In this document: positions 3,142-60,866 of the stretch, piece after piece
Position numbering within the stretch: position 1 is the first letter of the stretch
How the letters are laid out: every line of letters begins with the position of its first letter
Assembly: GCF_030684315.1 (NCBI RefSeq)
Contig: NC_081391.1
Coordinates: 21,164,629 to 21,228,628, forward strand
DNA from: Stegostoma tigrinum
Lineage: Eukaryota
DNA: 64,000 bases
Direction of reading: 5' to 3'
Translations under genes and position numbers: made by a program
Notes under the pieces: model-generated
Told to the model about the DNA's origin: nothing
The model's database searches: none
Seen by the model: only the letters and a program-made list of their open reading frames with translations

Positions 3142-5550
3142 ATGGCCTCCCAAGTGTGTCAGACCTACCACAAGGACTGTGAGGATGCTGTGAACAAACA
3201 GATCAACCTGGAGCTTTATTCCTCCTATGTTTACCTCTCCATGGTGAGACTTGTGATCTTGAATGGTCTATTTCAGTGTTAGGGCTGTGATATGATTGTA
3301 CTGAGCCTTTAAGTGGCTTCTTGCTCAATGATTTAGTACTACCATATATCTTGTCTGTTGTCCTTCCTGGAATGAATCCTGTGAGTGCTCTTAATACTAA
3401 TTCTGTAGCAATTTTAAGCTTGTCTTGTGTTGGAGCTGGCTCTTGTCTAGGAGTCCCCAGTATGTTGTAATTCTGGGCAGAGCACATTTTTGGTGCTGAG
3501 GGATGGCCTGGTTCTGCTTCTCAATTCAACTCCTCCTTCCATGTTGATATCAATGGCCCATTTATATTTGAAATCATTTACATCCTTGTGGAAGCCTGCA
3601 TCAGTCCAAATCTAACTTTTTATATCTTGTCCTTTTAATGAAGCCTTTTTTTTAATAAGCATCCTAACTGTGATTAACTACTGGAAATAAAAGACTAAAA
3701 TGAGCTGCTGGAAAAGCTTAGTGGGTCTGGTAGGATCTGTGGTGAGAAATCAGTTCCTGTTTTTGGTCCGGTGACCTTTCCTTCATGGTTTTTAGTTGCT
3801 AATTATGAGGAGCAGACTTTTTCCACTCCCAAGATGGATTATCTGGAACAAAAATCAGTCACTGTCTCTGTGCAGATGAGGTGTTCGGACAGTGGGGCTA
3901 AATCAGATGAGTGATGTTGGTAATGTGAGGAGCTCAGATTTCAGCTTCTCTTGGTCAACATGCACATGTCCCTTCGTTCTGTTGGACAATGCCCTGATTG
4001 GCTTCCAGCACTGGGTAATAGTGTTTCTGACCTGCAGTGCAGGGATGTCTAATGCCTGTTGCCAGCTGTGACCGTCACCGTGCACTGTCTCACCAAGTCA
4101 CCGACCAGCGGTTGTAGCAGGTGCTACTTAATCTTTATTTCTAGATGTTTGAACAAATGTCTGTCTAGTTTAGTTTATGGATGACCATAAATGTAAATAC
4201 CTGTCTTCTTACTGTCCATCTAACTTCCATTTCGTGAGCAAAACCAAGCTGAATTGAGTGAAATTTACTTCCCATTTTGTCTGTTTGCAGTTCTCTCTCT
4301 TTGACCGGGATGATGTTGCCCTCCATCACTTTGCTGAGTTCTTCAAGGAGCAGTCCCATGAGGAGCGGGAACACGCTGAGAAACTGATGGCATTCCAGAA
4401 TAAACGTGGAGGCTGAGTCCTCCTGCAGGACATCAAGGTTGGATTCTGAGAATGTCTGTCTGTTTGCAGCTTTTTGAGCAGCTACAATCGACTGGTATCT
4501 CCATCTATTTAGCTTCAGGATTGATCAAATACTATGTCAAGGGCAAGTTGTTCACCAAAACAGGATTTGTTTAGGGAAAAGGGAAATACTTTGCATTTGT
4601 GACTCAATAGCAGAAGGCAATTCAGATGATCCAGGCTACTGGATGGTGAGCACATGTCCCTGTATGTGACTCTATATGGACAAGGTGAGGTAACAAAAGG
4701 TAAGGCTGAGAACTTGCAGCTACAAAAAGCAGCAGCATCCAACCTCACTACATCCAGAAGAGGTTTGTAATGCCTTGGGACCATTCTGGTCACTACATCA
4801 AACAGTAAAGCAAGGGATTACTTCCATTGCGACTGATTCTAGATACGACTTCTTTCAGAATTCACAGTAACAGTGGGATATGTTAACATTTCTTTATTCT
4901 CAGACCAGCATAAAATCTAGAGGGTTTTTGTATCCAAGTAAAATTTTTTGTCTGAATGTAACCCCTGGAAATGATGAGGGATAACTAACTGATCAGATGT
5001 AGACTAATGATAGAACTGCCTGCTGAGCTGTGCTTTCTGTTCCTGCTTCCCTCGCTTCAGAAGCCAGAGCAGGATGAGTGCAGCAATGGTCTGGAGGTGA
5101 TGCAGAGAGCTCTGCAGATGGAGAAGGATGTGAACCAGAGTCTGCTGGATCTGCACAAACTTGCCTCTGACCACATAGACCCTCATGTGAGGTTTTATCC
5201 CTTTCCTGGTAGAAAGTGATCTGTTTGTGTACTTCCAGGGTGGGGAATCCAATTATTTTTCTACCTGCCTCCTGCAGGATGTTTAAACAAAACCTTGTGA
5301 AGGCATCACTTGCATGCCCCTCCCCCATAGGGAGGTGATGGTCACTTCTGTCATGGGAGGTCACTGACATTTTTTGATCCTTGTTGGATTAATTTTGTCT
5401 TCCAGCTGTGATTTCATGGAGAGGCACTACTTGGATAAGTAAGTGAAGATGATCAAGAAGCTGGGAGATCACATCACCAACCTGAAGAGACTGGGAGCCC
5501 CTGACAATGGCATGGGAGAGTACCTGTTTGACAGGTTCTCACTCAGCTGA
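3142..5550 (+). pseudogene. Ferritin pseudogene, type A (copy 1)
   Basis: Exons 3142-3243, 4291-4437, 5061-5186, 5406-5550 with GT-AG introns. Lesions: in-frame TGA at 4414 (CGA in intact copies); 2-bp deletion at the start of exon 4 (ctgtgatttc vs ctgtgtgacttc); CAA>TAA in exon 4. Confidence 0.93.
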
Positions 5551-9129: not shown

Positions 9130-9135
9130 TGAGCC

Positions 9136-10300: not shown

Positions 10301-10360
10301 GGACTTGGACCAAGGCTTCCTGGTCCACAGCTAGGGACATTACCCCTGCATCACAATACC
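10301..10360 (-). mobile_element. tRNA-derived SINE head fragment (one per B/C upstream region)
   Basis: Reverse complement ggtattgtgatgcaggggtaatgtccctagc...ggtccaagtcc has degenerate Pol III A-box and B-box spacing. Confidence 0.5.
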
Positions 10361-10383
10361 CTGGCTGCACTGGTTGTACAAAC

Positions 10384-10760: not shown

Positions 10761-11245
10761 ATTTCCCACCTTTCTTTCCCAAATCCCAGCACAACAGGCT
10801 GAGAAACTGACACTCCCCTTCCTCAATGAGTCCCTTCTGCAGTTGATCACAACCACCATAATTTAAAAACAAAACGAGCAATCTTTTCTCAAACCATATT
10901 TACTTCTTTTAAAAAAGAACCAAATGACCCATGACCTGATTGAGTGCTGCAGAAGGTTTGAGATGCCGAATGGCCTCCTGCTGTTCCAATCACAGAATAA
11001 CCATCCAGACCTGGCTCTCATCTCCACCTCTGATCAGCTCTGCTTAACACACCCTCCCCCTCTCTCTCATTGGTGCCTGCATCCAAGGGTCATTCCTGAT
11101 TGGCTAGCAGCAACTGTCAGTCATCATCAGTTCGGTCTCCCTCTGGGTGAGTGCCGGTTGTCTCAGGAGTAGAAACACAACAGCTTTGGGGATTGAGGCC
11201 TTTGTTCCAGAGTTGTCCTTGTGATTGTGAGCAGGAATAGTGAAG

Positions 11246-13765
11246 ATGGCTTCCCAAGTGTGTCAGAACTACCACAAGGACTGTGAGGATGTTGTTAACA
11301 AGCAGATCAACCTGGAGCTCTATTCCTCCTATGTTTACCTCTCCATGGTGAGCTTTGTGGAATTGAAGCCTGTGTGATAACAGTGTTGACCTGTTTGGGT
11401 TTTTATGCTGGGTTAATGACTTAGCTGTAGCATGTATTGTTTTCTGTGGCCCTTCCCCTGATGCAATCTCGTGCAAGTCCTAACACTGACTCTCTGTTCA
11501 GGTTTTGAACACTGTCTTAATATACAACTGGCTCCTGGGTGTGGATCCCCAGTTGTCCATCTCGGGACAGTGTAGCCCTTGGTGATTGTTTTCATTGAAC
11601 TCTGGAGGGTTGAGCTGGTTTTGCTGATAAATTTAACTTGGTTATATCCCTTTTCTTCAGAAAACCTGTCCTGGTAGGACACAAATGTCTCCTTTTGTTT
11701 GAACCTTGCCCCATTTGCCAGACTGGCTTATGTTCAAGATCTAAAGTTCCCTTAACTAAAGACAGCAACTGCTGGAAATCAAACAGCAACAAGAATAGCT
11801 AGAAAAGTTCTACAGATCTGCAAGGAATGGCGGAAGAAATCCGGTCAAATTTTGGGTCCACTGACCCTTGCTCAGTGTGTTTTGTGAGCTATGACAAGTG
11901 GCACACACTTGAAATATTAACTCGTGTACAACAAAGCAGTTAGAATTCTGTGTGGAGTGGGTGGTAGGACACTAGGGTTATTCAGGTGGGTGATGGTGAT
12001 AATGAGGCTGCTGACTGAGATTTCTGGCTGTGTTAATGACTGACTGCATTATTCATAGCATTTCATTCAGTTGGACAGGGGTCTAACTAGTCTCCACCTC
12101 GCGAACAATAATGTTTTATCACCTGCAGAACAGGGATATCTAATGGCTATAGACAGCTGTCCCCTTCATTGTGCACCATGCCACACTCTATCGCACCATT
12201 TTAGCAAAACACAGGTGAGGGATTGCATTTGGTTTTTGTCCTCTATTTCCAGAAGTCTGGCTAAGTATCTGTTACATGGGTTATAATCCATGGAAGGTGA
12301 CTTCCTGGCTCTCTCTAGTTTTGCCCACTTAAATGTGGAGTCAAGATGGTAACTGGGTTAGTATCTGAGAAGAGGCATTGATGTATTTTAGACATTTCCC
12401 TTTATTGCCTCTTTCCCCCGACAGGTCTCTTACTTTGACCGGGATGATGTTGCCCTGCGTCACTTGGCTGAGTTCTTAAAGGAGCAGTCCCATGAGGAGC
12501 GGGAACACGCTGAGAAACTGATGGCTTTCCAGAATAAACGTGGAGGCCGAATCCTCCTGCAGGACATCAAGGTTGCATTCCAAAGCTTTCTTTTGCCGCT
12601 TTTTGTGAAATACCACTCAATTGTGGCTAGCTCAATCTGTTTAGCTTCAGGACTGAGCAAATACTGTATGAATGGGGGGGGGGGGTTGCTCACCACAATA
12701 CGATTCCCTTCACTAAAAGGAAACACTTTTGCACGTGATTGAACAATAGTTGGCAATTGTGATAATCCAGTATTCTGGATGGTGAGCAAATATCGGTGTC
12801 TACTGCTGCTTTGGACAAGATGAGGTGTCAAAAGGGAAAACAGAAATCTTTCAGGTGTGGAAAGCATCAGTATGAAGCCTTAATACATCTAGAAGATGTT
12901 TCTGATGCCTTGTGATTACTCTGATCACAGCATAGCAGGATCTGTTTAGAAATGTCCCCTTCAAGAACAGTACCAAATACAGCAGGTGTTTCACCAAGGT
13001 CAAGTCGGCCTGTAGTACTTCCCCTACAATGATGAGGGATAATTAACTGATCAGATGTAGACTAATGATACAACTGCCTGCTGAAATCAGAATATCCTGC
13101 TTTACTCTGACAAAATTGATCATAGTTTTGATCACGTCAATAAGGTCACCTACAAGGAGATTTCCCCCATTTTCCTTAATCTTTCCGTGTATCTAAAATT
13201 CCCCATTCCTGGGGTCATCGTAATAAATCACCTTTGAACACTTTTGAGGTTTTTCACATCCTTCCTTGAATGTCATGCCCAGAACTGAGTACATAATGGA
13301 AATGTGGTCTAACCAATGATTTGTAGAGGTGTAACATCAATTCGTTGCTTTTATACTCGATGCCTCAATTTGAAATTGAATTTGTATTTAAATCTGGGTT
13401 TCTGAATAAAAACAGTGATCAGACACTTGGTCCTTTTTGTTAGCCACAAGATCTCATTTGACATTGTGGAGGGTTTTCTTGGGTTATACCAACATCCTCC
13501 TGTTTCTAAAACTGAGCACTTTCGAAAGTATTTGGCAATCTCCATGACATCACTTCACTGTTCGGTCTCCCAAGCTGCATTTGGTCAGATTTAACCAGTT
13601 CCCCTCTTTGTCTTCCAGCTGTATGACTTCCTGGAGAGGCACTACCTGGATGAGCAAGTGAAGATGATCAAGAAGCTGGGAGATCACATCACCAACCTGA
13701 AGAGACTGGGAGCCCCTGACAATGGCATGGGAGAGTACCTGTTTGACAGGCTCTCACTCAGCTGA
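11246..13765 (+). pseudogene. Ferritin gene, B/D chimera lacking exon 3 (copy 2)
   Basis: Exon 1 11246-11347, exon 2 12425-12571 and exon 4 13619-13765 are open. Exon 3 and its splice sites are absent and replaced by the inverted insertion at 13078-13375. Confidence 0.88.
13078..13375 (-). repeat. 298-bp inverted copy of 16104-16401 (old CR1 fossil segment) inserted in ferritin copy 2
   Basis: ctgctgaaatcagaatatcctgc...tgcctcaatttgaaa is the reverse complement of tttcaaattgaggca...gcaggatattctgatttcagcag; one mismatch seen. Confidence 0.95.
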
Positions 13766-15959: not shown

Positions 15960-16680
15960 GTCAAAACAGGCTCGATGTTACAAATCTGATGTGAGTACAG
16001 GAGCTCAGCGACTTTCAGTTTCAAGTATGTGATTATCTGAAAGTGGTCAGGCAGGATGAAGCTGTTATTAATGGAGATTGAGCCACTTTTGTGAACCTTG
16101 TGTTTTCAAATTGAGGCATCGAGTATAAAAGCAACGAATTGATGTTACACCTCTACAAATCATTGGTTAGACCAAATTTCCATTATGTACTCAGTTCTGG
16201 GCATGACATTCAAGGAAGGATGTGAAAAACCTCAAAAGTGTTCAAAGGTGATTTATTACGATGACCCCAGGAATGGGGAATTTTAGATACACGGAAAGAT
16301 TAAGGAAAATGGGGGAAATCTCCTTGTAGGTGACCTTATTGACGTGATCAAAACTATGATCAATTTTGTCAGAGTAAAGCAGGATATTCTGATTTCAGCA
16401 GTTGACTTGTCAGTGACGAGGGGTCACAGTTTGTCAGTAGGGGAGATCAGAGTGAAATGGTTAGAAAACTCTTTGCTCAGAAAGTTGTTCGGATTTGGAA
16501 TGTGCTGCCTGGGAGAGTGACGGAGGTCGATTCCATGGTTGGTTTCAGAACAAGAGTTGGATATGTCCTTGGAAGTGACGAATTTAGAGAGTGACAGAGA
16601 TAGGGCTGGAAAGTGAGACTAATCAGGTAGCTCTTTCAGAAGCTATTACAGGAACGGTGGGCTGAACGGCCTCCTGTTGT
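15960..16680 (+). mobile_element. Old degenerate CR1-type LINE, uninterrupted 'empty-site' version (paralogs ~37615-38327, ~49527-50245)
   Basis: Homologous to 1960-2690. Shows gtgaaccttgtgttttc without the CR1-b insertion. Confidence 0.7.
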
Positions 16681-17994
16681 GAAAAACGCTCTGAATTTCC
16701 ACTCAGGAAATTCTGAGAGTTTGGGGACGGGGTTTGAATTCCACCTGTAGAAGGCACCTTTAATGTGGGAAAGCTGTTACACGCCAGCAGAGACATGGTC
16801 CTTTACACAAGGTAGACCCAGTTCCACTGGCAAAGAAATGTTGACTGGGGATCCCCCCACTGCTGACCAACACCCACTGTCACAGCCAACGATCGCACAC
16901 ACCTATCTTCCACCTGGATGGCCGCTGGGGACTGGTTTTGCATTGCACTTTATCAGGACCCTCCCCTCGATCGTACCATCCTGGGTGGCGCTGCCAGGAG
17001 GTGAAATCTTCTTCAGGTATCACTCTGAGAAACAACACAACACTTGAGGCTCTCCATCACTGCGAGGTGACAATCCACAGGCAGGAGCTGGAGGCAGGGA
17101 GATTCTGCTCAGGTACAGACCCACCACAGAATCGGAGAATTGTTATGGCACAGCAGGAGGCCATTCGGTCCTTTGTGCCTGTACCTGTTCTGGTTGTTTT
17201 CTAAATCTGCCTGTGGAGATGATTTAAGATCTCTGGATCTGGTAGGAACTTGTACCAAGGCCTCCTGGTCCACAGCTAGGGACATGACCCCTTAACCACA
17301 AGACCCTGGCTGCGCTAGTTGCACAAACGTGGAATCATAGAAAATAAATGTTGAGTCGGCCATTCATCCCTTCCAGCCTGCTCTGCCATTCCATGTGATT
17401 GTGGCTGATTCCATAACTCAGCACCATATTCTCACCCTCTCTGCATTCCCTTTTGATCCAGCCCTCAAAGCTCTCCCCAATTCCTGTTTTGGCTTCAATC
17501 CTTTTCTGTGGCAGAGAATTCCACAGGATCCACCACCCCGCCCCCCGAGGTGAAGAGATTTCTCCTCACCTCAGTTCTAAATGTATCCTTAGACTGCAAA
17601 CCCTGGTCCTGAACTCCCCCATAATCAGGAACATCCTTCCCGTCTTTTCCACAGCTGACACTGTTGCAATTTTCTATGACCCAGAGACAATTTCCCAACT
17701 TTCTTTCCCAAATCCCAGCATAACAAGCTGAGAAACTGATGCCCCTCTTCCTCATTGAATCCCTCGTGCAGTTGCTCACAACCACCTTAATTAAAAAAAA
17801 TGTGAAAACTTTTCTCAAACCAAATTGACTTATTTTAAAAAAGAACCAAATAACACACGACCTGAGTGAGTGGTGCAGAAGGTTTGAGATGCCGAATGGC
17901 CTCCTGCTGTTCCAGTCACAGAATAACCATCCAGACCTGGCTCTCATCTCCACCTCTGATCAGCTCTGCTTAACACACCCTCCCCCTCTCTCTC

Positions 17995-18104
17995 ATTGGT
18001 GCCTGTATGCTGCGGTGGTTCCTGATTGGCCAGCAGCAACTGTCAGTCATCATCAGTTCTGCCTCTCTCTGTGTGACTGCAGGATGGTCCCAGGACTATA
18101 AATA
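17995..18104 (+). promoter_or_regulatory. Pol II core promoter of copy 3: two inverted CCAAT boxes plus TATA
   Basis: ATTGG at 17995 and 18025; TATAAATA at 18097-18104, ~70 nt upstream of the ATG. Confidence 0.75.
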
Positions 18105-18173
18105 CAAGAGCCTGTGGGAGAGAGAGACTTAGTTCTAGAGTTTTCTTGGTGCTTGTGAGCAGGAATAGTGAAG

Positions 18174-20447
18174 ATGGTTTCCCAAGTGTGTCAGAACTAC
18201 CACAAGGACTGTGAGGATGCTGTTAACAAGCAGATCAACCTGGAGCTCTATTCCTCCTATGTTTACCTCTCCATGGTGAGCTTTGTGGAATTGAAGCCTG
18301 TGCTATGATAGTGTTGACCTGTTTGGTTTTTATGCTGAGTTAATGAATTAGCTGTATCATGTATTATTTTCTGTGGCCCTTCCCCTGTTGCAATCTAGTG
18401 CAGGTCTTAACACTGACTCTCTGTTTTGTCTTCATGTCCAACTGGCTCCTGGATGTGGATGCCCAGCTTGCTGTCTCTGGACAATGTAACCCTTGGTGAT
18501 TTTTCATCTAACTCTGGAGGGATGATCTGGTCTTGGTCAATAATTAATTTTTGTAAAACTTTGGTTGTATTCCTTTTCTCAACAAAAGCCTTCCCTGGTG
18601 GAAACTTTTGCTGACACAAATATACTCCTTTTTTCAAACCTTGCCCTATTCACCGGACTGTCTTGTGCTCAAGATGTAAAGTTCCCTGAACTAAAAGAAC
18701 AGCTGCTGCTAGACATTAAACACTAACAAAAATAGCTAGAAAAGCTCTACAGAGCTGGAAGAAATCCAAGCTCTGGGTCCATTGACCCTTTCTCAGAAGT
18801 GGCTTTGAGCTATGCAATGTGAGGAAAGGGGCACATTTTCAGACTGTGTGTTTTTTTTCTTTCTCTCTAACAAAGCAGTTAAAATTCTGTGGAGTGGGTG
18901 GTAGGACACTGCGGTTATTCAGGTGGGTGATAGTGATAATGAGACTGCTGACTGAGCTTTCTGGTTGTGTTAATGAACACATGTCCCTTCATTCAGTTGG
19001 ACAGGGGCTGAACTGGTCTCCACCTCCTGAACAATAGTGTTTCTAACCTGCAGAGCAGGGATGTCTAATGGCTATAGACAGCTCTCCCCTTCATCATCCA
19101 TGGAAGGTGACTTGCTGCTTTGTCTGTTTTATTTTTAACCACTTAAATGTGGAATCAAGATGGTGCCCAGGTTAGTTCCAGAGTGAGGAGTGTCAGTCAT
19201 GAATTTCAGACAGTTTCCTTTTAGCCTCTCTCTTCCCACAGTTCTCTTACTTTGACCGGGATGATGTTGCCCTGCATCACTTTGCTGAGTTCTTCAAGGA
19301 GCAGTCCCATGAGGAACGGGAACACGCTGAGAAACTGATGGCATTCCAGAATAAACGTGGAGGTCGAGTCATCCTGCAGGACATCAAGGTTAGATTCTGA
19401 AGCCTTCTGTTTGCAGCTTTTTGTGAGCAGCTACAATCGACTGGTATCTCCATCTATTTAGCTTTAGCCTTGAACAAATACTGTGTGAAGGGGAGGTTGT
19501 TCACCAAAATAGGATTCCTTTAGGTGAAAGGAAATACTCTGCACTTATGAGGGCAATTGAGAGGAACCAGAATAGTGAGTAGACATCAATGTGAATGACT
19601 CTCCTTCAGACAGAATGAGGTAACAAAAGCTAAGACAGGAAATTGTTGCAGTGTGGAAAGTAGCAGTGTCCAGCCTTTCTGAATCTGGAAGATGTTTCTA
19701 ACACCACAATAGTGAAGCCAGGAATTACTTCCATTGGTACCTATTCTCTACATGTGAATTCTGAGAATCTACATTAACAGTAGAATGTGTTTAGAAAATT
19801 TGTTATTCCCTCAGTACAAAATCTAGTTGTTGTCTTCAAATTCAAGTTGGTTTGCAGTACCTCCCCTACAATGATGAGGGATAACTAACTGATCAGATGT
19901 CGACTAATGATACAACTGCCTGCTGAACTGTGCTTTCTGTTCCTGCTTCCCTCCCTCCAGAAGCCAGAGCAGGATGAGTGGGGCAGTGGTCTGGAGGCAA
20001 TGCAGAGAGCTCTGCAGATGGAGAAGGATGTGAACCAGAGTCTGCTGGATCTGCACAAACTCGCCTCTGGCCACACTGACCCTCATGTGAGTTTGTAAAC
20101 TTTCTTCTTGGAAGAAAGTGGTGTGTTTGTGCACTCTCTGGGTAAAAATCCAATTACCTTCTCCCAGCCTCCTGCAGGCTGTTAAAACAAACTTACAAAT
20201 GCATCACCTCAGTGGACCTCCACCTGGTTGTGATGGTCACATCTGTCATGGGGGTCACTTTCAGACACTTTTGATCCTCTGGATTAATTTTCTCTTCCAG
20301 CTGTGTGACTTCCTGGAGAGGCAATACTTGGATGAGCAAGTGAAGATGATCAAGAAGCTGGGAGATCACATCACCAACCTGAAGAGATTGGGAGCCCCTG
20401 ACAATGGCATGGGAGAGTACCTGTTTGACAGGCTCACACTCAGCTGA
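18174..20447 (+). CDS. Ferritin heavy/middle-subunit-like protein, type C (copy 3), 173 aa, intact
   Basis: join(18174-18275,19242-19388,19961-20086,20301-20447). [34 protein letters not shown] / [49 protein letters not shown] / [10 protein letters not shown]...DPH / [15 protein letters not shown]...DRLTLS*. Canonical splice sites and the vertebrate ferritin 4-exon layout. Confidence 0.95.
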
Positions 20448-20515
20448 ATGGGGTCAATAATGTGTATGTTGTACATGGTGACATAATGCTAGTAACTTGG
20501 TTGTGCTCTGAGCAA

Positions 20516-20521
20516 ATTAAA
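20516..20521 (+). terminator. Polyadenylation signal ATTAAA of copy 3 (equivalents at 13838, 35469, 42284, 54081)
   Basis: ATTAAA ~70 nt after the stop codon, at the same position in every copy. Confidence 0.65.
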
Positions 20522-22529
20522 ATAGTGTTCACCATGCAACTGAGTACTTTGCATAATTTCACAGCTGCTTCTGGCTCTTGGTATTGCTGTTTGACACCTG
20601 ATCATGAAGTGTTTTTCTGTTCTGATTAACCTTTGATTCAATGCCTGCCCCACTGGTTTGCTCCTTTTTCTCTTGTTTGTAGGAATTAGGTGGGCAATCC
20701 TTGTAGTGGAAATTCCACAAGTGTTCAGTTTGGGTTTTTTGGCTAGTAAGCAGTGTTGTATTGACTTTTTTATTCCAAACCAGCTTCTGGTCAATATCTT
20801 CAGTGAAACCAGCCCCCTGTCTCAATGTTAGACACTGCCCTTGCAAATGTTTAGGTCTCTTTTGTAAATAAGCAGGGGCAGGAAATAGCAGGTTTGGGGA
20901 GCATCTGTGGAGAGAAAACTGTTCAGTCCCAGGACCCAAGCTTTCCAGCAATTTTGTTGTCGCACTTCAAATCTAATGATTTGAGCATACATTTACTCTT
21001 TTTGGAACAGGAATATATATATAGCAGAACATCCAGCATTTCAGATGCACTGATCTTTAGCATTTAGATAAGCAATTGTGTCCAGATCTGGGAAATTGGT
21101 TTCTCTCTTTTGCTGCGGTGGTGGAAGGAGTGAGGGCAGTGGCTGTTTGTAGGAGAATGGCAGAGTTTGTTTTCTTGTGTATCAGTCTCTCTGCTTCTAG
21201 ACAATGATCCTGATTAGGTAATGAAGCAGTCCCCACCTTCGAGCCCCTGTGGTAGAACTTCTATCACTTCTCTGCAGTCTAAGGACGCCAAATGCTCATG
21301 ACACCAGGAGAAAATAAAGCTCCAACCCAAATGCCACTGGTAGAAAGCAGCAGTTCCTATTCTTAGCAAGGAAATAAGCTCTCCTGATGTAGATTGACTG
21401 ACTGGAATGTACCTACACCTGCAGAGCACTCTGGCTGCCTAATTACTGATGCTCAGGGGTGACAGATTCCTTTATAAAAAGGATGAGGATGTCTCTGAGC
21501 TGACACCATTTATTTATCCATTTCCGATTGCCCCCTGCCAAAGCCAGGTCAGAGTGTCACGCTTTGCTGTGGTTGCAGTGTCATATGCAGGCCAGACTAA
21601 GTAAGGATGCATTTTTGACACTGAATTTAATGCTACTCATCAGTTTCTTAATTCTAGAACTCCAGAGAGTTGTTGCACAGAATTAGAAGATCAGTCCACC
21701 ACTCCAGAAATGTGATGGCCTCCCGCTCCCACCAGCCACGAGATTCATTCTTTGCACCACTGACACACACAGAGTACACTGTGTACTGCCTCCCAAAAGC
21801 TGCAGAAATCCACCATCGCTCCTGAGACAATACTTTCCATAGCCCTAATTATGTGCCATGGGAGAAAAGCATCTGATACAGGGGAACACCACCCCCTCTA
21901 ACTACTCCACCAAGCGACATGCCATCCTGAGTTGGAAACGTGACCCGCCATGCTCCAGGGTCGGTGGATCAGAATCCTGGAATTCCCTCACTCAGAACAT
22001 TATGGATCTGACGACAGCAAATAGGCACCAGCAATTCAAGAAGGAAAGCCACCACATTCTCTCATGGTGAGCCTGATCTCAGACCGGGTCCAATACCTCG
22101 GGATGGGCCTTCTTTTGTGAAATTGTCAAGTCCTAGTTCAACCCCATCTGGAGTGCACTGTTCCAGTAGGTGCAATCCAAAGATGCTTATGCACAGAATT
22201 TCTGGAATGAACCTGGGCAGAAAGTTAATTGGCTACGATGATAATAGTTTTCCCAAGTCTCTCGGTGTAGAAGTGGAAGGGATGTCTGTGCTTGAAATTT
22301 ACAAGTGGATTCATGGATTTGATAGGGTAGATAGAGAGATCCTGCTTCTTTTCAATTCCATTCCAGGACCGAGAGTGGGGAATATGATTACATTCCTAGT
22401 AGTAGAAGTAAATCATCCATGATAAAGCAAAAAACAGCTGCTTTTTGGAAAGGATAATATGTGAATGAGCAGTTAGATATTTATTCGGTAAGATATTGAT
22501 GTTGCCAATCACTTTCCCATTGCAACATA

Positions 22530-24898: not shown

Positions 24899-27307
24899 AT
24901 GGCCTCCCAAGTGTGTCAGAATTACCACAAGGACTGTGAGGATGCTGTGAACAAACAGATCAACCTGGAGCTTTATTCCTCCTATGTTTACCTCTCCGTG
25001 GTGAGACTTGTGATCTTGAATGGTCTATTTCAGTGTTAGGGCTGTGATATGATTGTACTGAGCCTTTAAGTGGCTTCTTGCTCAATGATTTAGTACTACC
25101 ATATATCGTGTCTGTTGTCCTTCCTGGAATGAATCCTGTGAGTGCTCTTAATACTAATTCTGTAGCAATTTTAAGCTTGTCTTGTGTTGGAGCTGGCTCT
25201 TGTCTAGGAGTCCCCAGTATGTTGTAATTCTGGGCAGAGCACATTTTTGGTGCTGAGGGATGGCCTGGTTCTGCTTCTTAATTCAACTCCTCCTTCCATG
25301 TTGATATCAATGGCCCATTTATATTTGAAATCATTTACATCCTTGTGGAAGCCTGCATCAGTCCAAATCTAACTTTTTATATCTTGTCCTTTTAATGAAG
25401 CCTTTTTTTTAATAAACATCCTAACTGTGATTAACTACTGGAAATAAAAGACTAAAATGAGCTGCTGGAAAAGCTTAGTGGGTCTGGTAGGATCTGTGGT
25501 GAGAAATCAGTTCCTGTTTTTGGTCCAGTGACCTTTCCTTCATGGTTTTTAGTTGCTAATTATGAGGAGCAGACTTTTTCCACTCCCAAGATGGATTATC
25601 TGGAACAAAAATCAGTCACTGTCTCTTGTGCAGATGAGGTGTTAGGACAGTGGGGCTAAATCAGATGAGTGATGTTGGTAATGTGAGGAGCTCAGATTTC
25701 AGCTTCTCTTGGTCAACATGCACATGTCCCTTCATTCAGTTGGACAATGCCCTGATTGGCTTCCAGCACTGGGTAATAGTGTTTCTGACCTGCAGTGCAG
25801 GGATGTCTAATGCCTGTTGCCAGCTGTGACCGTCACCGTGCACTGTCTCACCAAGTCACCGACCAGCGGTTGTAGCGGGTGCTACTTAATCTTTATTTCT
25901 AGATGTTTGAACAAATATCTGTCTAGTTTAGTTTATGGATGACCATAAATGTAAATACCTGTCTTCTTACTGTCCATCTAACTTCCATTTCGTGAGCAAA
26001 ACCAAGCTGAATTGAGTGAAATTTACTTCCCATTTTGTCTGTTTGCAGTTCTCTCTCTTTGACCAGGATGATGTTGCCCTCCATCACTTTGCTGAGTTCT
26101 TCAAGGAGCAGTCCCATGAGGAGCGGGAACACGCTGAGAAACTGATGGCATTCCAGAATAAACGTGGAGGCTGAGTCCTCCCGAGGACATCAAGGTTGGA
26201 TTCTGAGAATGTCTGTCTGTTTGCAGCTTTTTGAGCAGCTACAATCGACTGGTATCTCCATCTATTTAGCTTCAGGATTGATCAAATACTATGTCAAGGG
26301 CAAGTTGTTCACCAAAACAGGATTTGTTTAGGGAAAAGGGAAATACTTTGCATTTGTGACTCAATAGCAGAAGGCAATTCAGATGATCCAGGCTACTGGA
26401 TGGTGAGCACATGTCCCTGTATGTGACTCTATATGGACAAGGTGAGGTAACAAAAGGTAAGGCTGAGAACTTGCAGCTACAAAAAGCAGCAGCATCCAAC
26501 CTCACTACATCCAGAAGAGGTTTGTAATGCCTTGGGACCATTCTGGTCACTACATCAAACAGTAAAGCAAGGGATTACTTCCATTGCGACTGATTCTAGA
26601 TACGACTTCTTTCAGAATTCACAGTAACAGTGGGATATGTTAACATTTCTTTATTTTCAGACCAGCATAAAATCTAGAGGGTTTTTGTATCCAAGTAAAA
26701 TTTTTTGTCTGAATGTAACCCCTGGAAATGATGAGGGATAACTAACTGATCAGATGTAGACTAATGATACAACTGCCTGCTGAGCTGTGCTTTCTGTTCC
26801 TGCTTCCCTCGCTTCAGAAGCCAGAGCAGGATGAGTGGGGCAATGGTCTGGAGGTGATGCAGAGAGCTCTGCAGATGGAGAAGGATGTGAACCAGAGTCT
26901 GCTGGATCTGCACAAACTTGCCTCTGACCACATAGACCCTCATGTGAGGTTTTATCCCTTTCCTGGAAGAAAGTGATCTGTTTGTGTACTTCCAGGGTGG
27001 GGAATCCAATTATTTTTCTATCTGCCTCCTGCAGGATGTTTAAACAAAACCTTGTGAAGGCATCACTTGCATGCCCCTCCCCCATAGTGAGGTGATGGTC
27101 ACTTCTGTCATGGGAGGTCACTGACATTTTTTGATCCTTGTTGGATTAATTTTGTCTTCCAGCTGTGATTTCATGGAGAGGCACTACTTGGATAAGCAAG
27201 TGAAGATGATCAAGAAGCTGGGAGATCACATCACCAACCTGAAGAGACTGGGAGCCCCTGACAATGGCATGGGAGAGTACATGTTTGACAGGCTGCCACT
27301 CCGTTGA
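24899..27307 (+). pseudogene. Ferritin pseudogene, type A (copy 4)
   Basis: Exons 24899-25000, 26049-26194, 26818-26943, 27163-27307. Lesions: TGA at 26172; 1-bp deletion near the end of exon 2 (ctcccgagg); 2-bp deletion at the start of exon 4. Confidence 0.93.
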
Positions 27308-33003: not shown

Positions 33004-35396
<2,393 letters not shown>

Positions 35397-39822: not shown

Positions 39823-42215
39823 ATGGTTTCCCAAGTGTGTCAGAACTACCACAAGGACTGTGAGGATGCTGTTAACAAGCAGATCAACCTGGAGCTCTAT
39901 TCCTCCTACGTTTACCTCTCCATGGTGAGCTTTGTGGAATTGAAGCCTGTGCTATGATAGTGTTGACCTGTTTGGTTTTTACGCTGGGTTAATGAATTAG
40001 CTGTAACATGTATTATTTTCTGTGGCCCTTCCCCTGTTGCAATCTAGTGCAGGCCTTAACACTGACTCTCTGTTCAAAACCTGACCATTGTCTTCATGTC
40101 CAACTGGCTCCTGGATGTGGACGCCCAGCTTGCTATCTCTGGACAATGTAACCCTTGGTGATTTTTCATCTAACTCTGGAGGGATGATGTGGTCTTTGTC
40201 AATAACTAAATTTTAAAATTGGTTGCATTCCTTTTCTCAACAAAAGCTTTCCCTGGTGGAAACTTTTCCTGACACAAATATACTCCTTTTTGTTTAAAAC
40301 CTTGCCCCATTCACCAGACTGTCTTGTGCTCAAGATGTAAAGTTCCCTGAACTAAAAGAACAGCAGCTGCTGGACACTAAACACCAACAGAAAAGCTCTA
40401 AACATCTGGTTGAAAACCAAGCTCTGGGTCCACTGACCCTTTCTCAAGTGGCTTTGAGCTATGCAATGTGAGGAAAGAGGCACACTTTCACACTATGTAT
40501 GTGATTTTTTTCTCTCTCTAACAAAGCAGTTAGAATTCTGTGGAGTGGATGGTAGGACACTGGGGTTATTCAGGTGGGTGATGGTGATAATGAGGCTGCT
40601 GACTGAGCTTTCTGGCTGTGTTCACGAACACATGTCCCTTCATTCAGTTGGACAGGGGCCTAACTGGTCTCCACCTCCTGAACAAGTGTTTCTAACCTGC
40701 AGAGCAGGGATGTCTAATGTCTATAGATAGCTCTCCACTTCATCAGGCACCATGCCACATGTACTGTCTCTCTTTCTCGCTCACACAGGCCAGGGATTGC
40801 ATTTGCTTTTTGTCCTTGATTTCCAGAAAGCTGGTGAAATATCTGCACAAAGGCTGCTTTAGTATCTGTTGTTTGGGTTATAATCCATGGAAGGTGACTT
40901 CCTGCTTTGCCTGTTTTTTTACCACTTAAATGTGGAATCAAGATGGTGCCCAGGTTATTTCCTGAGTGAGGAGTGTCATTCACGAATTTCAGACAGTTTC
41001 CTTTTAACCTCTCTCCCTCCCTCCCTCCCTCCACAGTTCTCTTACTTTGACCGGGATGATGTTGCCCTGCATCACTTTGCTGAGTTCTTCAAGGAGCAGT
41101 CCCATGAGGAACGGGAACACGCTGAGAAACTGATGGCATTCCAGAATAAACGTGGAGGTCGAGTCCTCCTGCAGGACATTAAGGTTGGATTCTGAAGCCT
41201 TCTGTTTGTGTAGCTCTTTGTGAGCAGCTACAATCGACTGGTATCTCCCTCTATTTAGCTTTAGCATTGAACAAATACTGTATGAAGGGGAGGTTGTTCT
41301 GCAAAATAGGCTTCCTTTAGGTGACAGGAAATAATCATCAATTGAGACTCACCAGAATAGTGAGTAGATATCAATGTGAATGACTCTCCTTTAGACAGAC
41401 TGAGGGAACAAAAGCTGAGACAGGAAATTGTTGCAGTGTGGAAAGTAGCAGTGTCCAGCCTTTCAGAATCTAGAAGATGTTTCTAACACCACAATCGTGA
41501 AGCCTATTCTCTGCATGTGAATTGAGAATCGACATGAACAGTAGAATGTGTTTAGAAAATTTCTTATTCCCTCAGTACAAAATCTAGTTGTCTTGAACAA
41601 ATTCAAGTTTGTTTGTAGTACCTCCTACAATGATGAGGGATAACTAACCGATGTAGACTAATGATACAACTGCCTGCTGAACTCTGCTTTCTGTTCCCAC
41701 TTCCCTCCCTCCAGAAGCCAGAGCAGGATGAGTGGGGCAATGGTCTGGAGGCAATGCAGAGAGCTCTGCAGATGGAGAAGGATGTGAACCAGAGTCTGCT
41801 GGATCTGCACAAACTGGCCTCTGGCCACATGGACCCTCATGTGAGTTTGTAAACTGTATTCTCTCTCTTCCTTGGAAGAAAGTGATGTGTTTGTGCACTC
41901 TCTCTTGGTTTAAAAATCCAATTACCTTCTCCCAGCCTCCTACCGGCTGGTAAAACCTTTCAAAGGCATCACCTAAGTGGACCTCCACATGGTGGTGATG
42001 GTCGCGTCTGTCATGGGAAGTCACTTTCAGACACCTTTTTGATCCTCTGGATTAATTTTGTCTTCCAGCTGTGTGACTTCCTGGAGAGGCACTACTTGGA
42101 TGAGCAAGTGAAGATGATCAAGAAGCTGGGAGATCACATCACCAACCTGAAGAGACTGGGAGCCCCTGACAATGGCATGGGAGAGTACCTGTTTGACAGG
42201 CTCACACACAGCTGA
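39823..42215 (+). CDS. Ferritin heavy/middle-subunit-like protein, type C' (copy 6), 173 aa, intact
   Basis: join(39823-39924,41037-41183,41715-41840,42069-42215). GT-AG introns; ends DRLTHS*. Confidence 0.95.
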
Positions 42216-46124: not shown

Positions 46125-47332
46125 TTCTCTTACTTTGACCGGGATGATGTTGCCCTGCGTCACTTTGCTGAGTTCTTCAAGGAGCAGTCCCATGAGGAGC
46201 GGGAACACACTGAGAACCTGATGGCTTTCCAGAATAAACGTGGGGGCCGAATCCTCCTGCAGGACATCAAGGTTAGATTCTGAAGCCTTCTGTTTGCAGC
46301 TTTTCGTGAAATACCACTCAATTGTGGCTCGCTCAATCTGTTTAGCTTCAGGACTGAGCAAATACTGTATGAATGGGGGGGTTGCTCACCACAATACGAT
46401 TCCCTTCACTAAAAGGAAACACTTTTGCACGTGATTGAACAATAGTTGGCAATTGTGATAATCCAGTATTCTGGATGGTGAGCACATATCGGTGTCTAAC
46501 GCTGCTTTGGACAACATGAGGTGTCAAAAGGGAAAACAGAAATCTTTCAGGTGCGGAAAGCATCAGTATGAAGCCTTTATACATCTCAAGATGTTTCTGA
46601 TGCCTTGATATCACTCTGATCACAGCATAGCAGGATCTGTTTAGAAATGTCCCCTTCAAGAACAGTACCAAATACAGCAGGTGTTTCACCAAGGTCAAGT
46701 TGGCCTGTAGTACCTCCCCTACAATGATGCGGGATAACTAACTGATCAGATGTAGACTAATGATACAACTGCCTGCTGAGCTGTGCTTTCTGTTCCTGCT
46801 TCCCTCCCTCCAGAAGCCAGAGCAGGATGAGTGGGGCAATGGTCTGGAGGCAATGCAGAGAGCTCTGCAGATGGAGAAGGTTGTGAACCAGAGTCTGCTG
46901 GATCTGCACAAACTGGCCTCTGGCAACACAGACCCTCATGTGAGTGTGGTGTATTTAAATCTGGGTTTCTGAATAAAAACAGTGATCAGACACTTGGTCC
47001 TTTTTGTTAGCCACAAGATCTCATTTGACATTGTGGAGGGTTTTCTTGGGTTATACCAACATCCTCCTGTTTCTAAAACTGAGCACTTTCGAAAGTATTT
47101 GGCAATCTCCATGACATCACTTCACTGCTCGGTCTCCCAAGCTGCATTTGGTCAGATTTAACCAGTTCCCCTCTTTGTCTTCCAGCTGTGTGACTTCCTG
47201 GAGAGGCACTACCTGGATGAGCAAATGAAGATGATCAAGAAGCTGGGAGATCACATCACCAACCTGAAGAGACTGGGAGCCCCTGACAATGGCATGGGAG
47301 AGTACCTGTTTGACAGGCTCACACTCAGCTGA
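46125..47332 (+). pseudogene. 5'-truncated ferritin pseudogene, type D (copy 7; exons 2-4 only)
   Basis: Exon 2 46125-46271 (acceptor AG>GG at 46123-46124), exon 3 46814-46939, exon 4 47186-47332. Only ~100 bp of intron 1 remains (from ~46021), preceded by LINE sequence. There is no promoter or exon 1. Confidence 0.9.
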
Positions 47333-51739: not shown

Positions 51740-54012
51740 ATGGTTTCCCAAGTGTGTCAGAACTACCACAAGGACTGTGAGGATGCTGTTAACAAGCAGA
51801 TCAACCTGGAGCTCTATTCCTCCTATGTTTACCTCTCCCTGGTGAGCTTTGTGGAATTGAAGCCTGTGCTATGATAGTGTTGACCTGTTTGGTTTTTATG
51901 CTGAGTTAATGAATTAGCTGTATCATGTATTATTTTCTGTGGCCCTTCCCCTGTTGCAATCTAGTGCAGGTCTTATCACTGACTCTCTGTTCAAAACTTG
52001 ACCACTGTCTTCATGTCCAACTGGCTCCTGGATGTGGATGCCCAGCTTGCTGTCTCTGGACAATGTAACCCTTGGTGATTTTTTTCATCTAACTCTGGAG
52101 GGATGATCTGGTCTTGGTCAATAATTAATTTTTGTAAAACTTTGGTTGTATTCCTTTTCTCAACAAAAGCTTTTCCTGACACAAATATACTCCTTTTTTA
52201 AAACCTTGCCCTATTCACCGGACTGTCTTGTGCTCAAGATGTCAAGTTCCCTGAACTAAAAGAACAGCTGCTGCTAGACATTAAACACTAACAAAAATAG
52301 CTAGAAAAGCTCTACAGAGCTGGAAGAAATCCAAGCTCTGGGTCCATTGACCCTTTCTCAGAAGTGGCTTTGAGCTATGCAATGTGAGGAAAGGGGCACA
52401 TTTTCAGACTATGTATGTGTTTTTTTTTCTTTCTCTCTAACAAAGCAGTTAAAATTCTGTGGAGTGGGTGGTAGGACACTGCGGTTATTCAGGTGGGTGA
52501 TAGTGATAATGAGACTGCTGACTGAGCTTTCTGGTTGTGTTAATGAACACATGTCCCTTCATTCAGTTGGACAGGGGCCGAACTGGTCTCCACCTCCTGA
52601 ACAATAGTGTTTCTAACCTGCAGAGCAGGGATGTCTAATGGCTCTAGACAGCTCTCCCCTTCATCATCCATGGAAGGTGACTTCCTGCTTTGTCTGTTTT
52701 TTTAACCACTTAAATGTGGAATCCAGATGGTGCCCAGGTTAGTTCCAGAGTGAGGAGTGTCATTCATGAATTTCAGACAGTTTCCTTTTAGCCTCTCTCT
52801 TCCCACAGTTCTCTTACTTTGACCGGGATGATGTTGCCCTGCATCACTTTGCTGAGTTCTTCAAGGAGCAGTCCCATGAGGAACGGGAACACGCTGAGAA
52901 ACTGATGGCATTCCAGAATAAACGTGGAGGTCGAGTCATCCTGCAGGACATCAAGGTTAGATTCTGAAGCCTTCTGTTTGCAGCTTTTTGTGAGCAGCTA
53001 CAATCGACTGGTATCTCCATCTATTTAGCTTTAGCCTTGAACAAATACTGTGTGAAGGGGAGGGTGTTCACCAAAATAGGATTCCTTTAGGTTGAAAGGA
53101 AATACTCTGCACTTATGAGGGCAATTGAGAGGAACCAGAATAGTGAGTAGATATCAATGTGAATGACTCTCCTTCAGACAGAATGAGGTAACAAAAGCTA
53201 AGACAGGAAATTGTTGCACTGTGGAAAGTAGCAGTGTCCAGCCTTTCTGAATCTGGAAGATGTTTCTAACACCACAATAGTGAAGCCAGGAACTACTTCC
53301 ATTGGTACCTATTCTCTGCATGTGAATTCTGAGAATCTACATTAACAGTAGAATGTGTTTAGAAAATTTGTTATTCCCTCAGTACAAAATCTAGTTGTCT
53401 TCAAATTAAAGTTGGTTTGCAGTACCTCCCCTACAATGATGAGGGATAACTAACTGATCAGATGTAGACTAATGATACAACTGCCTGCTGAACTGTGCTT
53501 TCTGTTCCTGCTTCCCTCCCTCCAGAAGCCAGAGCAGGATGAGTGGGGCAGTGGTCTGGAGGCAATGCAGAGAGCTCTGCAGATGGAGAAGGATGTGAAC
53601 CAGAGTCTGCTGGATCTGCACAAACTCGCCTCTGGCCACACTGACCCTCATGTGAGTTTGTAAACTTTCTTCTTGGAAGAAAGTGGTGTGTTTGTGCACT
53701 CTCTGGGTAAAAATCCAATTACCTTCTCCCAGCCTCCTGCAGGCTGTTAAAACAAACTTACAAATGCATCACCTCAGTGGACCTCCACCTGGTTGTGATG
53801 GTCACATCTGTCATGGGGGTCACTTTCAGACACTTTTGATCCTCTGGATTAATTTTCTCTTCCAGCTGTGTGACTTCCTGGAGAGGCAATACTTGGATGA
53901 GCAAGTGAAGATGATCAAGAAGCTGGGAGATCACATCACCAACCTGAAGAGACTGGGAGCCCCTGACAATGGCATGGGAGAGTACCTGTTTGACAGGCTC
54001 ACACTCGGCTGA
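51740..54012 (+). CDS. Ferritin heavy/middle-subunit-like protein, type C (copy 8), 173 aa, intact
   Basis: join(51740-51841,52809-52955,53526-53651,53866-54012). Near-identical to copy 3, with M34L and a DRLTLG* ending. Confidence 0.95.
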
Positions 54013-58457: not shown

Positions 58458-60866
58458 ATGGCCTCCCAAGCGTGTCAGAACTACCACAAGGACTGTGAGG
58501 ATGCTGTGAACAAGCAGATCAACCTGGAGCTTTATTCCTCCTATGTTTACCTCTCCATGGTGAGACTTGTGATCTTGAATGGTCTATTTCAGTGTTAGGG
58601 CTGTGATATGATTGTACTGAGCCTTTAAGTGGCTTCTTGCTCAATGATTTAGTACTACCATATATCTTGTCTGTTGTCCTTCCTGGAATGAATCCAGTGA
58701 GTGCTCTTAATGCTAATTCTGTAGCAATTTTAAGCTTGTCTTGTGTTGGAGCTGGCTCTTGTCTAGGAGTCCCCAGTATGTTGTAATTCTGGGCAGAGCA
58801 CATTTTTGGTGCTGAGGGATGGCCTGGTTCTGCTTCTTAATTCAACTCCTCCTTCCATGTTGATATCAATGGCCCATTTATATTTGAAATCATTTACATC
58901 CTTGTGGAAGCTTGCATCAGTCCAAATCTAACTTTTTATATCTTGTCCTTTTAATGAAGCCTTTTTTTTAATAAACATCCTAACTGTGATTAACTACTGG
59001 AAATAAAAGACTAAAATGAGCTGCTGGAAAAGCTTAGTGGGTCTGGTAGGATCTGTGGTGAGAAATCAGTTCCTGTTTTTGGTCCGGTGACCTTTCCTTC
59101 ATGGTTTTTAGTTGCTACTTATGAGGAGCAGACTTTTTCCACTCCCAAGATGGATTATCTGGAACAAAAATCAGTCACTGTCTCTTGTGCAGATGAGGTG
59201 TTAGGACAGTGGGGCTAAATCAGATGAGTGATGTTGGTAATGTGAGGAGCTCAGATTTCAGCTTCTCTTGGTCAACATGCACATGTCCCTTCGTTCTGTT
59301 GGACAATGCCCTGATTGGCTTCCAGCACTGGGTAATAGTGTTTCTGACCTGCAGTGCAGGGATGTCTAATGCCTGTTGCCAGCTGTGACCGTCACCGTGC
59401 ACTGTCTCACCAAGTCACCGACCAGGGGTTGTAGCGGGTGCTACTTAATCTTTATTTCTAGATGTTTGAACAAATATCTGTCTAGTTTAGTTTATGGATG
59501 ACCATAAATGTAAATACCTGTCTTCTTACTGTCCATCTAACTTCCATTTCGTGAGCAAAACCAAGCTGAATTGAGTGAAATTTACTTCCCATTTTGTCTG
59601 TTTGCAGTTCTCTCTCTTTGACCAGGATGATGTTGCCCTCCATCACTTTGCTGAGTTCTTCAAGGAGCAGTCCCATGAGGAGCGGGAACACGCTGAGAAA
59701 CTGATGGCATTCCAGAATAAACGTGGAGGCTGAGTCCTCCCGAGGACATCAAGGTTGGATTCTGAGAATGTCTGTCTGTTTGCAGCTTTTTGAGCAGCTA
59801 CAATCGACTGGTATCTCCATCTATTTAGCTTCAGGATTGATCAAATACTATGTCAAGGGCAAGTTGTTCACCAAAACAGGATTTGTTTAGGGAAAAGGGA
59901 AATACTTTGCATTTGTGACTCAATAGCAGAAGGCAATTCAGATGATCCAGGCTACTGGATGGTGAGCACATGTCCCTGTATGTGACTCTATATGGACAAG
60001 GTGAGGTAACAAAAGGTAAGGCTGAGAACTTGCAGCTACAAAAAGCAGCAGCATCCAACCTCACTACATCCAGAAGAGGTTTGTAATGCCTTGGGACCAT
60101 TCTGGTCACTACATCAAACAGTAAAGCAAGGGATTACTTCCATTGCGACTGATTCTAGATACGACTTCTTTCAGAATTCACAGTAACAGTGGGATATGTT
60201 AACATTTCTTTATTCTCAGACCAGCATAAAATCTAGAGGGTTTTTGTATCCAAGTAAAATTTTTTGTCTGAATGTAACCCCTGGAAATGATGAGGGATAA
60301 CTAACTGATCAGATGTAGACTAATGATACAACTGCCTGCTGAGCTGTGCTTTCTGTTCCTGCTTCCCTCCCTCCAGAAGCCAGAGCAGGATGAGTGGGGC
60401 AATGGTCTGGAGGTGATGCAGAGAGCTCTGCAGATGGAGAAGGATGTGAACCAGAGTCTGCTGGATCTGCACAAACTTGCCTCTGACCACATAGACCCTC
60501 ATGTGAGGTTTTATCCCTTTCCTGGAAGAAAGTGATCTGTTTGTGTACTTCCAGGGTGGGGAATCCAATTATTTTTCTATCTGCCTCCTGCAGGATGTTT
60601 AAACAAAACCTTGTGAAGGCATCACTTGCATGCCCCTCCCCCATAGTGAGGTGATGGTCACTTCTGTCATGGGAGGTCACTGACATTTTTTGATCCTTGT
60701 TGGATTAATTTTGTCTTCCAGCTGTGATTTCATGGAGAGGCACTACTTGGATAAGCAAGTGAAGATGATCAAGAAGCTGGGAGATCACATCACCAACCTG
60801 AAGAGACTGGGAGCCCCTGACAATGGCATGGGAGAGTACATGTTTGACAGGCTGCCACTCCGTTGA
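58458..60866 (+). pseudogene. Ferritin pseudogene, type A (copy 9)
   Basis: Exons 58458-58559, 59608-59753, 60377-60502, 60722-60866. Lesions: TGA at 59731; 1-bp deletion in exon 2; 2-bp deletion in exon 4. Confidence 0.93.

What the first reader, a model, noticed from the sequence alone, without database searches (positions are those of the whole stretch)
18097..18176. Ferritin genes with no iron-responsive element
Seen: only ~70 nt separate TATA and ATG, and none of the eight exon-1-bearing copies has a CAGUGN loop there (type C: ...gagacttagttctagagttttcttggtgcttgtgagcaggaatagtgaagATG). Known: vertebrate cytosolic H, L and M ferritin mRNAs normally carry a 5' IRE bound by IRP1/IRP2. Inference: this amplified family escapes iron-dependent translational repression. 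Many copies, a TATA/CCAAT promoter and no IRE would suit bulk, transcription-driven ferritin production.
Basis: partly seen in the sequence, partly recalled or inferred. Interest (0 to 1): 0.78.

Follow-up and report, generated by a model that had tools for sequence, protein, structure and literature searches.

The report
Shark ferritin array without iron switch
This shark carries hundreds of tandem copies of an iron-storage (ferritin) gene, and every copy checked lacks the RNA switch that normally ties ferritin production to iron levels, probably so that ferritin can be stockpiled in eggs; the gene arrays were known, but the missing switch seems unreported.

Summary
Confirmed and extended. 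The window holds 9 ferritin copies (4 intact) of a ~1.6 Mb array in a carpet-shark genome. There are 390 exon-1 matches genome-wide, including a second cluster. None of 79 clustered exon-1 copies examined has an IRE. The same searches find perfect IREs in exactly two single-copy genes: FTH1-type and an M-like gene next to the array. An intronless retrocopy begins at the initiator about 30 nt after the TATA box. This points to a ~45 nt unstructured 5' UTR with no upstream exon. Intact copies keep all seven ferroxidase ligands (39 of 39) and show dN/dS of about 0.27. They belong to a shark-wide clade separate from both IRE-bearing genes. The arrays are already reported, with ovary-specific expression (Greenland shark preprint); loss of the IRE is not. 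The best reading is a germline or ovarian storage ferritin controlled by transcription and gene dosage, paralleling IRE-less snail yolk ferritin. The clade also changed the surface residues that bind the ferritin-degradation receptor NCOA4 in humans (A19D, R23K); whether that matters is untested. About half of the copies are broken, which tempers 'bulk production'.

The parts
17994..18029 (+). Two reverse CCAAT boxes (CATTGG at 17994, GATTGG at 18024) of copy c3
   Evidence: ATTGG present within 260 nt upstream in 53 of 57 array exon-1 copies
18097..18104 (+). TATA box of c3
   Evidence: TATAAA in 37 of 57 array copies; promoter homologous to that of the second cluster, nhmmer E 6.8e-5
18126..18135 (+). 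Initiator-like element, inferred transcription start
   Evidence: YYANWYY match peaks at +32/+33 from the TATA T (21 of 26 matches in 40 unique UTRs); C11 retrocopy homology begins 46-48 nt before the ATG
18128..18173 (+). ~45 nt 5' UTR, unstructured, no IRE
18174..18275 (+). c3 exon 1 (34 codons; carries D15 and K19, equal to human A19 and R23)
19242..19388 (+). c3 exon 2
   Evidence: junction spliced in contigs of run X2
19961..20086 (+). c3 exon 3
20301..20447 (+). c3 exon 4 to stop (173 aa protein)
20516..20521 (+). ATTAAA polyadenylation signal, present in all 9 copies
3142..5550 (+). copy c1, pseudogene (stops in exons 2 and 4, altered exon-4 acceptor)
11246..13765 (+). copy c2, lacks exon 3, degenerate TATA
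24899..27307 (+). copy c4, pseudogene (stop and frameshift in exon 2)
33004..35396 (+). copy c5, intact frame, degenerate TATA
39823..42215 (+). copy c6, intact, TATA present
46125..47332 (+). copy c7, lacks exon 1
51740..54012 (+). copy c8, intact, TATA present
58458..60866 (+). copy c9, pseudogene (stop and frameshift in exon 2)

Best explanation
A shark-wide lineage of four-exon cytosolic ferritin genes lost the 5' IRE before the shark orders diverged and was amplified in tandem. SHOWN: no IRE in any clustered copy examined; intact ferroxidase centre; purifying selection; germline or early-embryo transcription (retrocopies). INFERRED: a CCAAT/TATA/Inr promoter starts a ~45 nt leader, so IRP1/IRP2 cannot block ribosome loading and output follows promoter activity times copy number. 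The housekeeping, iron-responsive job stays with two single-copy IRE genes. INFERRED from another shark: the array works mainly in the ovary, most likely loading oocytes with ferritin ahead of iron arrival, as a maternal iron store and oxidative shield. The second cluster (E62K, Q141E) may supply an L-like partner subunit.
For: 0 of 68 main-array and 0 of 11 second-cluster exon-1 copies have a canonical IRE in 400 nt upstream. A genome-wide 22-mer search with <=3 mismatches gave 87 hits, exact only at the two control genes and none inside either cluster or C216. The C11 retrocopy is intronless, has a poly(A) tract, lies within a repeat that continues on both sides, and is colinear with the array UTR back to the initiator. 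Two spliced contigs from runs guessed to be RNA stop 22 and about 38 nt before the ATG with no joint to an upstream exon; this is a weak hint only. Seven ferroxidase ligands are invariant in 39 of 39 intact copies, and pN/pS is 0.25-0.28. Array plus second cluster form one clade, 98/89, with sevengill, saw, horn, cat, white and smoothhound sharks (basking shark and further carpet sharks join). The Greenland shark preprint reports ovary-specific expression of its largest cluster, syntenic with white shark. 5 of 6 retrocopies examined derive from the IRE-less clade. Snail yolk ferritin also lacks an IRE.
Against: There is no direct TSS, expression or IRP-binding datum for this species; no listed run is on record as RNA. 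Retrocopies can be 5'-truncated: the C13 retrocopy of the IRE gene lost its IRE that way, and only 1 of 5 clade retrocopies reaches the initiator. Retrocopy numbers also follow from copy number (390 against 2). The ovary data come from one passage on another species, and orthology to that cluster is inferred through white-shark proteins. 22 of 40 models in contiguous stretches are broken or cut. IRE absence in other sharks' copies was not testable, as no genomes are held. Only 79 of about 390 copies were read directly.
Confidence: 0.65

Rival explanations
1. The IRE-less ferritins are a somatic stress or immune stock, for example in the epigonal (blood-forming) organ that wraps the shark gonad, or in follicle cells. 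They would be induced by transcription against oxidative stress or infection, like the fthl27 tandem expansion of the hadal snailfish.
For: Snailfish has 14 mostly tandem fthl27 copies, highly expressed in most tissues and lowering ROS in cells. IRE-less mitochondrial ferritin answers to oxidative stress. An array-type spliced contig occurs in a run where the M-type contig is also present. The epigonal anatomy is recalled, not from a call.
Against: The Greenland shark cluster is described as ovary-specific. Retrocopies need germline or early-embryo transcripts.
Confidence: 0.17
2. A birth-and-death array inflated by unequal crossing-over. The IRE was lost once, neutrally, in a redundant duplicate; a few copies matter and copy number is not adaptive.
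For: Window repeats of 13-17 kb at about 99% identity; about half of the copies broken; at least 35 identical exon-1 copies.
Against: pN/pS 0.25-0.28 and invariant catalytic ligands across 39 distinct intact copies (conditioned on intactness). Large arrays persist in distant shark orders. Promoter elements are conserved between clusters 73% identical in protein.
Confidence: 0.13
3. The mRNAs are still iron-regulated through an alternative upstream exon, a non-canonical IRE or another RNA-binding protein.
For: The leader has AG dinucleotides after a T-rich run that could act as acceptors (sequence). Alternative promoters govern IRE inclusion in insect ferritin (title and abstract start only).
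Against: The C11 retrocopy runs colinearly through those AGs to the initiator. No Rfam IRE in the window or in the array and second-cluster loci among the 150 kb scanned, where the only hits were the two control genes. The leader is unstructured.
Confidence: 0.05

Closest known systems
Ferritin clusters of Greenland and white shark (bioRxiv 10.1101/2024.09.09.611499; section 6 and word search read)
   Same: Hundreds of intact-looking ferritin copies in a few clusters, ancient and shared between shark lineages; very probably the same gene family
   Different: The preprint labels copies FTL and FTH1 and does not discuss regulation (the word 'iron' occurs 0 times). IRE loss, the separate clade, the adjacent IRE gene and the surface changes are not in its main text. 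Its supplements were closed.
Amphibian/teleost M (middle) ferritin and vertebrate H ferritin
   Same: Four-exon structure, Pfam Ferritin, full ferroxidase centre; best solved match is bullfrog M (E 3e-87)
   Different: Salmon H and M mRNAs all carry predicted IREs (PMC4117605 passages). The array lacks one, forms its own clade and has K instead of the near-invariant R23.
Snail yolk ferritin (PMC10799875 passages) and schistosome ferritins (reference title only)
   Same: IRE-less ferritin tied to egg provisioning, beside IRE-type or soma ferritins
   Different: Snail yolk ferritin is one gene, secreted, with a signal peptide and a 42 aa insert. The shark proteins have neither, and number in the hundreds. 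An analogue, not an orthologue.
Mammalian mitochondrial ferritin FTMT (PMC13010531 passages)
   Same: Vertebrate ferritin with no IRE, controlled by transcription
   Different: FTMT is a single intronless retrogene with a targeting peptide; the array genes have three introns and no presequence.
Hadal snailfish fthl27 tandem expansion (PMC10746142 passages)
   Same: Tandem ferritin amplification with high expression
   Different: 14 copies, broad expression; the term IRE occurs 0 times in that paper.

Membership tests
Eukaryotic ferritin (Pfam PF00210) | Ferritin domain over the full length | tested here: met
   136 bits against cut-off 24.5 for near-identical protein P0343
Catalytic H/M-type ferritin | Ferroxidase ligands E27, Y34, E61, E62, H65, E107, Q141 (list recalled; offset checked) | tested here: met
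   39 of 39 intact array copies; the second cluster has K62 and E141
Canonical IRP-regulated cytosolic ferritin (H, L, M) | 5' UTR IRE near the cap (Rfam IRE_I) | tested here: not met
   the two control genes pass
Canonical IRP-regulated cytosolic ferritin (H, L, M) | IRP binding and iron-dependent translation | not testable with these tools
   needs gel shift and reporter
FTH1 orthologue | Groups with vertebrate H chains | tested here: not met
   The C20 gene groups with H (94/88) and the array does not; a sister relation to H is not rejected, p-AU 0.25
M/L orthologue | Groups with amphibian/teleost M or mammalian L | tested here: inconclusive
   Deep branches open; sister to the shark M-like IRE gene not rejected, p-AU 0.18; no mammalian L chain was among the fetched proteins
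Invertebrate yolk ferritin | No IRE | tested here: met
   as above; for the snail
Invertebrate yolk ferritin | Signal peptide and 42 aa insert | tested here: not met
   The 173 aa protein aligns from residue 1 without gaps to bullfrog M
Invertebrate yolk ferritin | Accumulates in yolk or oocyte | not testable with these tools
   only ovary RNA in another shark
Mitochondrial ferritin FTMT | Intronless, N-terminal targeting peptide | tested here: not met
   three introns, no extension
NCOA4-bound (ferritinophagy) ferritin | A19, N22, R23 cleft (PMC4592949, PMC11076521 passages) | tested here: inconclusive
   N22 kept, R23K 39 of 39, A19D 33 of 39. R23K and A19D were not among the mutants seen. 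The ferritin-binding helix was not found in 60 kb of the shark NCOA4 locus.

The most novel reading that the evidence does not exclude
Sharks evolved a vertebrate 'egg ferritin' lineage that escaped both cellular iron controls at once: IRE/IRP on synthesis, and NCOA4-directed degradation through fixed A19D/R23K surface changes. They amplified it to hundreds of copies, with a catalytic and (in carpet sharks) an L-like non-catalytic cluster, to lay down a stable maternal iron bank in very large, slowly maturing eggs.
Probability: 0.27. Interest if true: 0.82.

Novelty: new variant of a known kind. Interest (0 to 1): 0.6.

Why it matters
It gives a mechanism for an unexplained published oddity, hundreds of ferritin genes conserved across sharks. 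They are not extra housekeeping H and L genes but a separate lineage uncoupled from iron sensing. That changes how the expansion should be read in longevity or stress-resistance arguments, and makes the question of how iron is provisioned in giant yolky vertebrate eggs testable. It would also be a vertebrate parallel to IRE-less yolk ferritins of snails, and a natural experiment on the NCOA4 interface.

Tried and rejected
IRE relic: the array leader aligns to the neighbouring IRE gene's leader as if 8 nt of the upper stem and loop were deleted. This is significant against shuffles (p 0.003 local; 0 of 500 TATA-anchored), but not against 267 genomic control stretches (6-16% score as well under five scoring schemes). 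The H gene scores equally in local alignment, nhmmer misses it, and the test was designed after seeing the likeness. Kept as a hint (~0.3). Recent origin from the adjacent IRE gene: not supported by the trees, not rejected by the AU test (the 88-row tree is the quick version). Synteny: glycogen synthase lies on C20 and C33, not C50; long ORFs in 130 kb of array flanks were repeats or low-complexity by inspection, so synteny is unresolved. Expression: no RNA holder listed; contig depths were not used to rank genes or count copies. Hairpin with a CAGAGA loop at 7456, 29215 and 62774: kilobases from any exon 1, with its C paired; rejected. Relaxed-loop hits in 3 of 62 non-control exon-1 copies lie upstream of the TATA box. 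A complex prediction with NCOA4 was not run, because a non-pass would be no evidence. Earlier scan findings: none. PMC7992352, PMC13309962 and bioRxiv 10.1101/2025.02.19.638963 (word searches only) gave nothing useful.

Full report
OBSERVATION. The finding spans the TATA box (18097) to the ATG (18174) of a four-exon ferritin gene, copy c3 (exons 18174-18275, 19242-19388, 19961-20086, 20301-20447; 173 aa). The window holds 9 copies, 8 with exon 1. Four are intact (c3, c5, c6, c8), three carry stops or frameshifts, one lacks exon 3 and one lacks exon 1. No copy has CAGTG in the last 80 nt or an IRE-shaped hairpin in 400 nt upstream. Rfam finds no IRE in the window. The leaders fold no better than shuffles, z 0.1 to -0.9. 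Two of the 8 have TAGAAA rather than TATAAA.

CONTEXT. The window is G000:C50:21.16-21.23 Mb in a 3.2 Gb genome. The nearest named proteins are from carpet sharks, 100% identical in exon 2 to a Stegostoma tigrinum entry. Ferritin exons run from about 19.95 to 21.56 Mb on C50, over contig C216, and in a second cluster at about 13.04-14.37 Mb. An exon-1 23-mer with up to 2 mismatches has 390 matches against 1 for the reversed control (only the first 100 places were listed, and C216 may be haplotypic). In contiguous samples 18 of 40 gene models were intact, some of the rest being cut by sample edges.

CONTROLS FOR THE ABSENCE. Rfam IRE_I hits two places in the genome (82 candidates scored, so not exhaustive): an FTH1-type gene on C20, and an M-like gene at C50:21.609 Mb, about 50 kb beyond the last array copy. 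A 22-mer ferritin-IRE pattern with up to 3 mismatches gave 87 matches (control 41). It was exact only at those two genes and absent from both clusters and C216. Read directly, 0 of 68 main-array and 0 of 11 second-cluster exon-1 copies had a canonical IRE. Three aconitase-family loci exist, consistent with ACO2, IRP1 and IRP2, though I did not assign them. So the IRE system is intact and the array is outside it.

WHERE THE mRNA STARTS. TATA-to-ATG distances are 62-79 nt in the array. An initiator match peaks at +32/+33. The promoter is homologous between the two clusters (E 6.8e-5). A processed copy on C11 is intronless, 89% identical, has AATAAA and a poly(A) tract, and lies within a repeat that continues on both sides. 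Its homology to array genes starts abruptly 46-48 nt before the ATG, at the initiator, and passes colinearly through the possible splice acceptors in the leader. Against this: retrocopies are often truncated, and the C13 retrocopy of the IRE gene starts 63 nt before its ATG and so lost its IRE. Of 6 retrocopies examined, 4 are main-array type, 1 second-cluster type, 1 M-like and 0 H; only one reaches the initiator. Contigs from two runs guessed to be RNA are spliced like c3 and stop about 22 and 38 nt before the ATG without a joint upstream, which is a weak hint.

PROTEIN AND ORIGIN. The best solved match is bullfrog M ferritin. All seven ferroxidase ligands (list recalled) are invariant in 39 of 39 intact copies, with pN/pS 0.25-0.28. 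The second cluster has E62K and Q141E, an L-like pattern (K62 in every second-cluster exon 2 shown). Its top relatives were all carpet sharks. In a 39-row tree, array and second cluster form one clade (98/89) with proteins of sevengill, saw, horn, cat, white and smoothhound sharks, apart from the H clade and the shark/ray M-like clade. Deeper branching is open; AU tests reject neither sister relation (p 0.18, 0.25). Rows were chosen by me from about 300 fetched proteins (78 named rows plus 10 own; 39), and no mammalian L chain was available. Protein clusters of 180, 138, 127 and 69 members mix array proteins of several sharks (15 listed per cluster). No ray or chimaera protein fell in the array clade among the rows used.

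A SECOND CHANGE. Human FTH1 binds the degradation receptor NCOA4 through a cleft in which R23A, N22A and A19Y abolish binding (PMC4592949 and PMC11076521, passages). The array has K at 23 in 39 of 39 and D at 19 in 33 of 39 copies; other sharks' array proteins have K in 18 of 19 and D in 18 of 19. Shark M-like (11 of 11) and H (8 of 8) keep A and R, and 37 of 38 other ferritins keep R (3 rows were left out of these groups). R23K and A19D were not among the tested mutants I saw, lysine is conservative, and I could not find the human ferritin-binding helix in 60 kb of the shark NCOA4 locus, although its Cys-rich stretch matches a solved NCOA4 chain. Escape from degradation is therefore a lead, not a result.

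MECHANISM. Shown: no IRE, catalytic protein under selection, germline or early-embryo transcripts. Inferred: a short capped leader that IRPs cannot block, so output is set by promoter and dosage. Inferred from another species: ovary. The Greenland shark preprint (section 6 read; supplements closed and could bear on this) reports 155 plus 179 copies, clusters shared with white shark, and ovary-specific expression of the largest. Ferritin transcripts are abundant in vertebrate ovaries and ferritin occurs in amphibian eggs (PMC1488847 passages), and snail yolk ferritin lacks an IRE (PMC10799875 passages). A cell that must build storage capacity before iron arrives gains from dropping the switch. 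I put this reading at 0.65, a somatic stress or immune role at 0.17, neutral birth-and-death at 0.13 and a hidden IRE at 0.05.

NOVELTY. The arrays are known and annotated; IRE-less ferritins are known in mammals (mitochondrial) and invertebrates. I found no paper noting that the shark arrays lack IREs, form a clade apart from H and M, or changed the NCOA4 cleft. Searches: open-licence library only, so subscription papers are not covered. I recall a later journal paper on ferritin expansion in Greenland shark but could not find or check it. Verdict: real, new variant of a known kind, interest 0.6.

Noticed in passing
L007:1488 onward (+), G000:C50:21591488-21601894: A four-exon ferritin with a 56-residue N-terminal extension (9 Arg, no Asp or Glu), like a mitochondrial presequence, and no IRE. 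A review states that mitochondrial ferritin is known only in mammals, Drosophila and plants and is intronless in mammals, so this may be an independent intron-bearing one.
   Followed up: partly
L005-L006, G000:C50:21570741-21580354 (-): A divergent single ferritin gene with a TATA box, no IRE, and K61/Q65 at ferroxidase positions, between the array and the IRE gene.
   Followed up: partly
L020-L022, L071-L075, L096-L098, G000:C50:~13.04-14.37 Mb: A second IRE-less tandem cluster with an L-like E62K/Q141E pattern and a homologous promoter; relatives seen only in carpet sharks.
   Followed up: partly
L069:7201-8433 (-), G000:C49: The large NCOA4 exon of this shark matches the Cys-rich stretch of a solved NCOA4 chain, but no match to the human ferritin-binding helix spacing was found in 60 kb; shark ferritinophagy may differ.
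   Followed up: partly
window 18189-18191 (codon 6): Cys replaces the conserved N-terminal Arg in 38 of 39 intact copies and in many other sharks' array proteins; it could allow disulphide links.
   Followed up: no
window 1-13084 vs 21757-34839; 13383-30441 vs 46950-64000: Higher-order repeats of several genes at about 99% identity show recent block duplication, including of pseudogenes.
   Followed up: partly
P0100: A protein labelled Aeromonas veronii ferritin groups with catshark M-like ferritin: probably a mislabelled or contaminant record.
   Followed up: no
L064-L067, L094, L095: Six processed ferritin pseudogenes on C2, C5, C11, C13 and C17; none from the H gene.
   Followed up: yes
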